Origin: Escherichia coli O157:H7
GTDB lineage: Bacteria; Pseudomonadota; Gammaproteobacteria; Enterobacterales; Enterobacteriaceae
DNA length: 64,000 bases
Direction: 5' to 3' (one strand)
Assembly: GCF_013167455.1 (NCBI RefSeq)
Contig: NZ_CP038328.1
Every line of letters starts with the position of its first letter. Positions within the stretch are counted from its first letter, which is position 1. The position numbers and the translations under genes were made by a program. Under the pieces are notes generated by a model. The model had not been told where the DNA came from and searched no databases. It worked only from the letters and a program-made list of their open reading frames with translations. Shown here in pieces: positions 9,700-10,322 of the stretch.

Positions 9700-10322
9700 C
9701 GAACTCCTCGCGCTTTATTATTATAAAAGCACAACACCTTTTATACTCATATTAATTAACGAAACACTGAAACAACTTGATTTATTCTTAGCTCAAATTC
9801 ACTTGTTCAAAAAGATTATATTTTATACCCACAACTGTAGCATAAATAATATTATCAAAAGTCAAAGCTGGGACTATCAAATTTCGCTCATTTTCAAAAA
9901 TACAACGTAATTTTGGCAATCATCTTAATAGCAGGATCTCTTATCGCATGTGAAAAATTTGTAATGATTAGACAATAACCGCGTTCATTTATCACGCGTT
10001 ATAAATGTGAAACTGGCTTCTTGCAGATGCTCTTAACCTCTACAGGAGGATTTATACCACCATTTCAGAACTATCATATTTACCTTAAATGATCATTTCA
10101 GCCATATAACACGCTCAACCTCACAAATGGTTTACACTGTCTATTGTTTGGGTAATTTAAGTAAGTCAGCTACGAGCAACCTTGAGTGGGTCGCCAGCAA
10201 TGGACTCAAACCCAATCAGGTGTTCAGATTGTTTCAGAATTGTATTAAAAACAATGTATTAAATAATCTGATAGCGTTTGGTCGTAGTGTGACGCAGACA
10301 GCAAGCTAATAAGGAAATGATT

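What the first reader, a model, noticed from the sequence alone, without database searches (positions are those of the whole stretch)
9700..10316. Unusually long (~0.6 kb) A+T-rich non-coding leader between the orphan gene and ybjP
The region upstream of the orphan ORF is long for an E. coli intergenic spacer, strongly A+T-rich, and contains only short ORFs (60-84 aa) of low-complexity composition. Such regions on horizontally acquired DNA are typical H-NS/StpA silencing targets and sometimes host regulatory RNAs or the island boundary. The ybjP promoter must also lie here, so the insertion may have changed ybjP regulation.
Basis: inference. Interest (0 to 1): 0.4.

Follow-up and report, generated by a model that had tools for sequence, protein, structure and literature searches.

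The report
Swapped promoter region upstream of ybjP
This long A+T-rich spacer is the regulatory region of a 2.5-kb DNA insert found in about a fifth of E. coli strains; the insert pushed aside the original ybjP promoter, so ybjP is now transcribed from new start sites inside the insert, an ordinary example of promoter replacement.

Summary
Window 9667-10322 is a 656-bp gene-free spacer at 34% G+C, against 50% for the window. It lies in the only low-G+C patch of the 64 kb.

It belongs to a ~2.5-kb insert (about 7752-10280). The insert is present at this one locus in about 1,125 of 5,426 complete E. coli genomes. It is absent from K-12 and from 53 related enterobacterial species, which keep a conserved 125-bp ybjQ-ybjP spacer.

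The insert landed on the -10 element of the ancestral ybjP promoter (K-12 start site 56 nt upstream of the ATG). Published Cappable-seq data for EDL933, whose spacer is identical to the window, place the ybjP start sites at 177, 179 and 208 nt upstream. These map to window 10146, 10144 and 10115.

The spacer has two parts:
- **Right half (9995-10322):** conserved; holds the replacement ybjP promoters and a long 5' leader.
- **Left half (9667-9994):** fast-evolving; lies upstream of an almost silent, often frameshifted orphan gene.

The 60-codon ORF Z1096 lies in the ybjP leader and is probably not a gene. I found no RNA family, conserved structure, repeat or mobility signature. H-NS silencing is plausible but was not tested. 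Verdict: ordinary, a case of a switched intergenic region.

The parts
7752..10280 (.). A+T-rich insert of about 2.5 kb (33% G+C) between ybjQ and ybjP. It replaces about 22 bp of the ancestral 125-bp spacer. Each junction is uncertain by about 10-20 bp.
   Evidence: Alignment to K-12 and to empty-site strains. Outgroup loci. Composition.
7900..9666 (-). Orphan gene, 588 aa from the ATG or 599 aa from GTG 9699, with a weak pentapeptide-repeat region. It equals Z1097 plus Z1098 in EDL933, where a 7-bp insertion splits it.
9667..9994 (.). Left block of the spacer (30% G+C). It is fast-evolving (77% identity between allele classes A and C) and is the presumed regulatory region of the orphan gene.
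9851..9880 (-). Predicted sigma-70-type promoter for the orphan gene (TTGATA, 18 nt, GATAAT; 10 of 12 matches). Both hexamers are unchanged in all allele classes. This is a prediction only; no start site was reported for the orphan.
9995..10322 (+). Right block of the spacer (38% G+C). It is conserved (92% identity A versus C, 99% A versus B) and holds the replacement ybjP promoters and the 5' leader.
10105..10115 (+). Upstream ybjP promoter: -10 hexamer TATAAC (10105-10110) and start site at 10115, 208 nt before the ATG.
   Evidence: Cappable-seq in EDL933, PMC10469882 Table S5, mapped onto identical sequence.
10133..10146 (+). Main ybjP promoter: -10 hexamer TACACT (10133-10138) and start sites at 10144 and 10146, 179 and 177 nt before the ATG.
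   Evidence: The hexamer is invariant in all alleles.
10127..10309 (+). 60-codon ORF, Z1096 in EDL933. It lies inside the ybjP 5' leader and is probably not a gene.
10087..10098 (.). Perfect 12-bp palindrome AAATGATCATTT containing a GATC site, just upstream of the TATAAC -10 hexamer. It is conserved in all alleles. It may be a regulator or Dam site; this was not tested.
10281..10322 (+). Retained 3' end of the ancestral ybjP leader, from TCGTAG through the ribosome-binding site TAAGGAAAT.
7747..7753 (+). Vestige of the ancestral ybjP -10 element: K-12 gCTATTAT has become CCATGTT here. It now lies 2.57 kb from ybjP.
   Evidence: K-12 start site 56 nt upstream (RegulonDB value quoted in PMC10469882), mapped.
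7723..7767 (-). ybjQ start sites in EDL933, 34 and 78 nt upstream of the ybjQ ATG. The distal one (7767) lies just inside the insert.

Best explanation
The region is the divergent regulatory spacer of a ~2.5-kb A+T-rich insert. The insert entered the ybjQ-ybjP intergenic region of an E. coli ancestor and now segregates in about 21% of strains. It integrated at the -10 element of the ancestral ybjP promoter, which is reported as sigma-S-dependent in K-12, and so cut that promoter off from ybjP.

- **Right half (9995-10322):** now supplies ybjP with replacement promoters. The -10 hexamers are TACACT and TATAAC, and the start sites are 10144/10146 and 10115. The resulting 5' leader is 177-208 nt instead of 56 nt. 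This half is kept under purifying selection.
- **Left half (9667-9994):** the upstream region of the orphan pentapeptide-repeat gene. That gene is essentially untranscribed in the laboratory and often pseudogenised. This half drifts faster.
- **Z1096:** the 60-codon ORF is part of the ybjP leader, not a gene.

Shown: the absence of the insert elsewhere, the junctions, the start sites, the transcript levels and the conservation pattern. Inferred: that the orphan side is silenced by H-NS-type proteins, and that ybjP regulation differs in level or in conditions, beyond the change in start site.
For: - **Distribution.** The insert is in 1,124-1,128 of 5,426 complete E. coli genomes, always at this locus, and in no phage or true plasmid; the three hits in the plasmid collection are chromosome-sized E. 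coli records.
- **Ancestral state.** 53 other enterobacterial species representatives lack the insert; most keep a ~125-bp spacer with a strongly conserved core (GATACGCTATTATTGAAAGGATATCATT..ATCGTAGA). None carries the orphan gene or this spacer.
- **Ancestral promoter.** The K-12 ybjP start site is 56 nt upstream of the ATG, with a gCTATTAT -10 element that lies exactly at the left junction.
- **New start sites.** EDL933 start sites at 1033012, 1033014 and 1033043 map to window 10146, 10144 and 10115. The EDL933 spacer is 100% identical to the window.
- **Transcription.** RNA-seq signal over Z1096 tracks ybjP across 11 conditions (Spearman 0.92). The orphan fragments Z1097 and Z1098 stay at 0-3 and 0-11.
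- **Conservation.** The right block diverges 3-10 times less than the left block (Fisher p = 1e-7 for A versus C, 4e-5 for A versus B). It also diverges less than ybjP synonymous sites (p = 0.003 and 0.006).
- **Sigma-S dependence.** ybjP in K-12 is described as sigma-S regulated in bioRxiv 10.1101/2025.03.19.644130, citing Lacour & Landini 2004.
Against: - The sharp drop in divergence at about 9995 could partly be an old recombination breakpoint rather than constraint. Strain 2020CK-00188 is a C/B recombinant within the spacer.
- The promoter elements are weak. I found no good -35 hexamer, and the simple consensus scan did not find either promoter.
- No direct comparison of ybjP expression between carrier and non-carrier strains was available.
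- H-NS occupancy was not tested, and the H-NS high-affinity motif is absent from the spacer.
- The start-site tables were truncated in the held copy, so further start sites in the left half cannot be excluded.
Confidence: 0.8

Rival explanations
1. Z1096 (10127-10309) is a real, young small-protein gene or upstream ORF. Its stop codon overlaps the ybjP ribosome-binding site, so its translation would be coupled to ybjP translation.
For: - The ORF is open in allele classes A, B and C.
- A versus C gives 9 synonymous and 6 non-synonymous changes, omega 0.15, the lowest of the six frames.
- The start site at 10115 lies 12 nt upstream of its ATG, and the 2017 EDL933 annotation assigned that site to it.
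- The region is transcribed.
Against: - The main start sites, 10144 and 10146, lie downstream of its ATG.
- There is no Shine-Dalgarno sequence.
- It has no homologue outside this locus among 5.8 billion proteins.
- Allele E has a nonsense codon, K13*.
- With all alleles pooled, 9 of 20 changes are synonymous, p = 0.01-0.11 before correcting for six frames.
- Ribosome profiling of Sakai reported no translated intergenic ORF between 1015351 and 1036840.
- Current RefSeq annotation has dropped it.
Confidence: 0.1
2. The 177-208-nt leader is a structured cis-regulatory RNA, such as a thermosensor, a riboswitch-like element or an sRNA target site, or the spacer encodes an independent small RNA.
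For: - The leader is long and conserved.
- It can fold into a long imperfect hairpin spanning 10169-10288.
- ybjP and Z1096 signals rise at 15 C and with nitrite.
Against: - No Rfam family matched, even at E <= 1.
- Folding z-scores are -0.9 to -1.5, within the range of shuffled sequence.
- 0 of 56 predicted pairs show compensatory change, and 5 pairs are broken in some allele.
- No terminator-like site was found in the spacer.
- No start sites other than those of ybjP were found in the held tables.
Confidence: 0.07
3. The long spacer is ancestral, and K-12-type strains carry a deletion.
For: - The insert alleles are deeply diverged (orphan dS 0.61 between A and C), so the polymorphism is old.
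- No mobility genes or target duplication mark an insertion event.
Against: - Among the 53 other species representatives, E. albertii, other Escherichia species, Salmonella and most Citrobacter share the same conserved ~125-bp spacer as K-12. That spacer includes the promoter core that the insert interrupts.
- The insert is 33% G+C in a 50% background.
Confidence: 0.03

Closest known systems
Switched intergenic regions, also called horizontal regulatory transfer, in E. coli (Oren et al. 2014, as described in Thorpe et al. 2018, PMC5890482)
   Same: A core gene (ybjP) has two non-homologous upstream regions in different strains of one species. The flanking core genes are mosaic, consistent with spread by homologous recombination. 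The transcription start sites differ between the two states.
   Different: The switch here is a by-product of a gene-carrying 2.5-kb insertion, not a clean IGR-for-IGR replacement. Piggy's default gene-pair method would exclude it and only its 'upstream' method would catch it. No expression comparison between the two states has been made.
Xenogeneic A+T-rich DNA silenced by H-NS/StpA
   Same: Low G+C (33%) in a 50% genome. The orphan cargo gene is almost untranscribed in 11 conditions. The upstream region is long and A+T-rich.
   Different: No binding data are available. The high-affinity motif TCGATAAATT is absent from the spacer. The ybjP-proximal half is actively transcribed, so it is not fully silenced.
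Promoter creation or capture by insertions, as with IS-borne outward promoters
   Same: An insertion separates a gene from its native promoter, and transcription then starts inside the inserted DNA.
   Different: There is no IS element, transposase or terminal repeat. The new promoters are ordinary weak -10 elements in A+T-rich DNA.

Membership tests
Switched intergenic region / horizontal regulatory transfer | The same downstream core gene is present in both states. | tested here: met
   ybjP is present in all 5,424 matching genomes, with or without the insert.
Switched intergenic region / horizontal regulatory transfer | The alternative upstream sequences share no homology. | tested here: met
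   Only about 20-40 bp next to the ybjP ATG align with the K-12 spacer. A sensitive blastn search with the spacer matched only the 1,128 carrier genomes.
Switched intergenic region / horizontal regulatory transfer | The distribution is shaped by recombination and is incongruent with the strain tree. | tested here: inconclusive
   The ybjP 5' end is mosaic: B2 empty-site strains combine a K-12-like signal peptide with a carrier-like mature part. A C/B recombinant spacer also exists. No strain phylogeny was built.
Switched intergenic region / horizontal regulatory transfer | Transcription of the downstream gene is altered. | tested here: met
   The start site is 56 nt upstream in K-12 and 177/179/208 nt upstream in EDL933 (PMC10469882 Table S5). 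Expression levels were not compared.
Classical genomic island | Integrase or mobility gene, tRNA target, and flanking direct repeats. | tested here: not met
   No tRNA. No significant direct or inverted repeats at the junctions. The only cargo is the orphan ORF.
Classical genomic island | Deviant base composition and patchy distribution. | tested here: met
   33% against 50% G+C. Present in 21% of E. coli genomes and absent from 53 other species.
H-NS/StpA-silenced xenogeneic DNA | H-NS occupancy, and de-repression in an hns mutant. | not testable with these tools
   No ChIP or mutant data were found for this locus. Searches for ECs0949 and Z1097 returned nothing relevant.
H-NS/StpA-silenced xenogeneic DNA | A+T-rich DNA with transcriptionally silent cargo. 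| tested here: met
   G+C is 30-34%. Z1097 and Z1098 read 0-3 and 0-11 across 11 conditions. No start site was reported for the orphan gene.
H-NS/StpA-silenced xenogeneic DNA | High-affinity nucleation motif (TCGATAAATT-like). | tested here: not met
   There are 0 matches with up to 2 mismatches in the spacer. The insert has 1.2 matches per kb against 1.5 per kb in the whole window.
Curated RNA families (Rfam 15) | A covariance-model match at or near the gathering score. | tested here: not met
   No match in 7500-10860 at E <= 1.
Small protein gene (Z1096) | The start codon lies within the transcript and has a ribosome-binding site. | tested here: not met
   The main start sites, 10144 and 10146, are downstream of ATG 10127. 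Only the minor site at 10115 includes it, with a 12-nt leader and no Shine-Dalgarno sequence.
Small protein gene (Z1096) | Purifying selection on the reading frame, and an intact ORF in all lineages. | tested here: inconclusive
   Omega is 0.15 for A versus C. Pooled, 9 of 20 changes are synonymous (p = 0.01-0.11), and allele E carries K13*.
Small protein gene (Z1096) | Evidence of translation. | tested here: not met
   It is not among the translated intergenic ORFs in Sakai ribosome profiling (PMC5597208). That study covered only its own growth conditions.

The most novel reading that the evidence does not exclude
The conserved right half may be more than a makeshift promoter. Z1096 could be a recently born, translated upstream ORF, or the 180-210-nt leader could be a regulatory RNA. 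Either would give carrier strains such as O157:H7 a new layer of control over YbjP, which a recent preprint reports as the lipoprotein partner of the TolC efflux duct.
Probability: 0.1. Interest if true: 0.5.

Novelty: new member of a known kind. Interest (0 to 1): 0.25.

Why it matters
About a fifth of E. coli strains, including O157:H7, O55:H7 and O145, transcribe the core lipoprotein gene ybjP from different promoters than K-12 and with a three-fold longer leader. A 2025-26 preprint reports YbjP as a partner of the TolC outer-membrane duct. K-12 regulatory knowledge of ybjP, such as sigma-S dependence, may therefore not transfer to these pathogens. Beyond that, the case is a clean, well-documented example of an already known process, regulatory rewiring by acquired DNA. 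It also corrects an old annotation: Z1096 is most likely leader RNA, not a gene.

Tried and rejected
- **RNA families.** An Rfam scan at a permissive threshold returned only a sub-threshold CRISPR-DR53 hit at 10868-10904, outside the region, at the ybjP terminator.
- **RNA folding.** I folded the right block on both strands and both mapped leaders. The z-scores were -0.9 to -1.5.
- **Covariation.** A test on 6 distinct alleles found no compensatory pairs.
- **Repeats and tRNAs.** Repeat, tandem-repeat and tRNA searches gave no target duplication, no terminal inverted repeats and no tRNA.
- **Duplicated ybjP 5' end.** I considered that the left end of the insert (7752-7900) is a duplicated ybjP 5' end, because of a shared AGGAAATCAT. 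The local alignment score was no better than shuffles, so I rejected the idea.
- **More divergent orphan alleles.** I followed divergent orphan fragments (P0146-P0159) to their contigs in the hope of finding more alleles or a donor. All turned out to be E. coli allele classes B, C or E, or deletion variants.
- **The 84-aa ORF (9656-9910).** It is present only in allele class A, so it is not a gene.
- **Domain and defence-system searches.** Pfam, PADLOC and NCBIfam gave nothing for Z1096. The orphan gene gave only sub-threshold pentapeptide-repeat hits.
- **Literature.** Searches for EspX2 and Z1096 in full text found nothing. The supplement of PMC4765031 does not mention the locus.

Full report
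**Layout.** On the window's + strand the order is:
- amiD (6539-7369, -)
- ybjQ (7366-7689, -)
- an A+T-rich orphan ORF (7900-9666 from the ATG, or to 9699 from a GTG, -)
- the spacer in question
- ybjP (ATG 10323, +), then artP

The spacer is 623-656 bp depending on which orphan start is used. G+C is 34.4% for 9700-10316 against 50.4% for the window. The only stretch of the 64 kb this A+T-rich is 7831-10358, which is the orphan gene plus this spacer. In the annotated Sakai record it is the longest of 41 intergenic gaps in 48 kb. Its ORFs are 84, 60, 43 and 33 aa.

**An insert, and derived.** K-12 has a 125-bp ybjQ-ybjP spacer. Of 5,426 complete E. coli genomes, 1,124 carry the long form. The spacer sequence itself occurs in 1,128 genomes, always at this locus, never on a true plasmid or phage.

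I fetched the ybjP locus from 54 GTDB species representatives, including E. albertii, other Escherichia species, Citrobacter, Salmonella, Klebsiella, Kluyvera and Enterobacter. None has the orphan gene or this spacer. The one exception is a mis-binned E. coli contig in a 'Collinsella' MAG. Most have ybjQ and ybjP about 125 bp apart, and the spacer core GATACGCTATTATTGAAAGGATATCATT..ATCGTAGA is conserved from Escherichia to Salmonella. The short form is therefore ancestral.

Homology with the short form ends at about 7751 on the left. It resumes at about 10281 (TCGTAG), and clearly by 10302, on the right. The insert replaces about 22 bp. There is no target duplication, terminal inverted repeat, tRNA or mobility gene.

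**Allele classes.** The insert exists in at least four allele classes:
- A: O157, O55 and O145 strains
- B: about 94-96% identical to A
- E: about 92% identical to A
- C: about 85% identical to A

Recombinants between classes also exist. The 5' 300 bp of ybjP travels with the insert: it is 78% identical to K-12, and whole-gene dS is 0.65. This fits spread by homologous recombination through the flanks.

**What the insertion did to ybjP.** RegulonDB places the K-12 ybjP start site 56 nt upstream of the ATG (quoted in Table S5 of PMC10469882). That is the G in gCTATTATtgaaaG, so the -10 element is (C)TATTAT. This hexamer sits exactly at the left junction. In the window it reads CCATGTT (7747-7753) and lies 2.57 kb from ybjP.

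The same table gives the EDL933 ybjP start sites as 177, 179 and 208 nt upstream. The genomic positions are 1033012, 1033014 and 1033043. The EDL933 spacer is 100% identical to the window. Over the whole ybjQ-ybjP interval EDL933 differs only by a 7-bp insertion in the orphan gene. The start sites therefore map exactly to window 10146 (G), 10144 (T) and 10115 (T).

Plausible -10 hexamers sit at the right distance: TACACT (10133-10138) and TATAAC (10105-10110). Both are intact in every allele class. I found no good -35 hexamers, and the simple consensus scan missed both promoters.

The sites were detected in these conditions:
- 10146: exponential LB, minimal medium and salt, and stationary salt
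- 10144: stationary LB and acid
- 10115: exponential salt, stationary minimal medium and stationary salt

In strand-specific RNA-seq of EDL933 across 11 conditions, the signal over Z1096 (which lies in this leader) tracks ybjP:
- Z1096: 44, 53, 18, 235, 135, 0, 29, 44, 33, 26, 0
- ybjP: 40, 112, 3, 153, 175, 0, 13, 102, 45, 46, 0

Spearman correlation is 0.92. So ybjP in carrier strains is transcribed from promoters inside the insert, with a 177-208-nt leader.

ybjQ also has a start site (7767) just inside the insert's left end, at almost the K-12 distance: 78 nt against 76 nt.

**Two halves.** Between allele classes A and C the identities are:
- left half, 9667-9994: 77% (K = 0.27)
- right half, 9995-10322: 92% (K = 0.084)
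- ybjP: 95%
- orphan CDS: 81%

The same contrast holds for A versus B and A versus E. The right half diverges significantly less than the left (p = 1e-7 and 4e-5). It also diverges less than ybjP synonymous sites (p = 0.003 and 0.006). That argues for purifying selection, as expected for the promoter and leader of a conserved gene. A recombination breakpoint near 9995 may add to the sharpness of the step. Strain 2020CK-00188 shows that breakpoints do occur inside the spacer.

The left half faces the orphan gene, which has these properties:
- It has only one full-length 50%-identity cluster among 1.84 billion representative proteins.
- It gives only sub-threshold pentapeptide-repeat hits.
- It is frameshifted in EDL933, Sakai, TW14588, GF4-3, SC418, EC42405 and 2020CK-00188.
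- It reads 0-3 (Z1097) and 0-11 (Z1098) in all 11 RNA-seq conditions.
- It has no reported start site.

A consensus-like promoter on the - strand (TTGATA, 18 nt, GATAAT; 9880-9851) is conserved in all alleles, but it is only a prediction. Silencing by H-NS-type proteins is a reasonable inference from composition and silence. I could not test it, and the H-NS high-affinity motif is not enriched.

**Hidden features.**
- Rfam gives nothing.
- Folding of the block and of the mapped leaders is no better than shuffled sequence.
- None of 56 predicted pairs covaries.
- The 84-aa ORF exists only in allele class A.

The 60-aa ORF at 10127-10309 is Z1096 of the original EDL933 annotation. In its favour:
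- It is open in classes A, B and C.
- Omega is 0.15 for A versus C, the lowest of six frames.

Against it:
- The main start sites lie downstream of its ATG.
- It has no Shine-Dalgarno sequence.
- It has no homologue outside this locus.
- Allele E carries a nonsense codon at position 13.
- With all alleles pooled the synonymous excess is marginal: 9 of 20, p = 0.01-0.11 before multiple-test correction.
- Sakai ribosome profiling lists no translated intergenic ORF here.
- Current RefSeq annotations omit it.

I rate it about 10% likely to be a real gene.

**Comparison with known systems.** This is a case of a switched intergenic region, also called horizontal regulatory transfer (Oren et al. 2014, as summarised in PMC5890482). 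The variation here is that the switch is a side-effect of a gene-carrying insertion. It is not a classical genomic island, because it has no integrase, tRNA or repeats. It fits the profile of xenogeneic A+T-rich DNA, but the defining H-NS binding is untested.

The matter has some practical weight. YbjP has recently been reported as a lipoprotein partner of TolC and is described as sigma-S-regulated in K-12. About 21% of E. coli strains, including major pathogens, have lost that promoter context.

**Verdict.** Biologically the region is ordinary.

Noticed in passing
L016:3303-3947; L014:1963-3273; L020:3786-4795: The ybjQ-ybjP interval is a recurrent insertion hotspot. Citrobacter sp. FP75 carries a chromosomal QnrB-family pentapeptide-repeat gene there (NF000420, 473 bits). 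Another Citrobacter carries an AppA-family phytase, and a third carries unrelated cargo. The E. coli cargo is also a pentapeptide-repeat-containing protein; whether that is more than coincidence is unknown.
   Followed up: partly
window 8465 (orphan gene 7900-9666, - strand): The orphan ORF is intact in this window. EDL933 differs only by a 7-bp insertion (TATTTGT) after 8465, which splits the gene into Z1097 and Z1098. Sakai and TW14588 annotate the same two-fragment split. Several other lineages carry independent frameshifts. PGAP nevertheless labels the identical intact copy in strain 2017C-4109 a partial pseudogene.
   Followed up: partly
window 10323-10620 (ybjP 5' half): The carrier ybjP is only 78% identical to K-12 over its first 300 bp and 97-100% after that. 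Whole-gene dS is 0.65. The signal peptide is MRYRSLSLL instead of MRYSKLTML. B2 strains without the insert combine the K-12-type signal peptide with the carrier-type mature part. The locus is a recombination mosaic with unusually deep alleles.
   Followed up: partly
L073 (ENA metagenome contig), equivalent to window 9349-10298: A natural variant has deleted the orphan 5' end and the entire spacer, including all three ybjP start sites. ybjP there sits directly against the orphan-gene body.
   Followed up: no
L006 (strain CUWW06), equivalent to window ~7752-9995: An IS1 has replaced the orphan gene and the left half of the spacer. The conserved right half, with the ybjP promoters, is kept intact from about 9995.
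   Followed up: partly
window 10087-10098: A perfect 12-bp palindrome AAATGATCATTT with a Dam GATC site lies just upstream of the -10 hexamer of the 10115 start site. It is invariant in all allele classes and may be a regulator or methylation site.
   Followed up: no
window 10456 (- strand): Published Cappable-seq lists an antisense start site inside ybjP (EDL933 1032702), detected in four of the eight conditions.
   Followed up: no
window 7690-7767: In the ancestral 125-bp spacer the ybjP and ybjQ start sites are 6 bp apart on opposite strands, so the two promoters overlap divergently. After the insertion ybjQ keeps a start site at nearly the same distance (78 nt against 76 nt), although its -10 region (TAAACT, 7779-7774) is now insert DNA.
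   Followed up: partly
window 7900-8200 (ECs_0950 in Sakai): One transcriptome paper (PMC11301168) lists ECs_0950, the C-terminal fragment of the orphan gene, among the genes of unknown function with elevated expression in its Sakai transcriptome experiments with TiO2 nanoparticles and phage. The printed fold change is ambiguous. In EDL933 the same fragment rises only in the LB-antibiotics condition (11 against 0-3).
   Followed up: no
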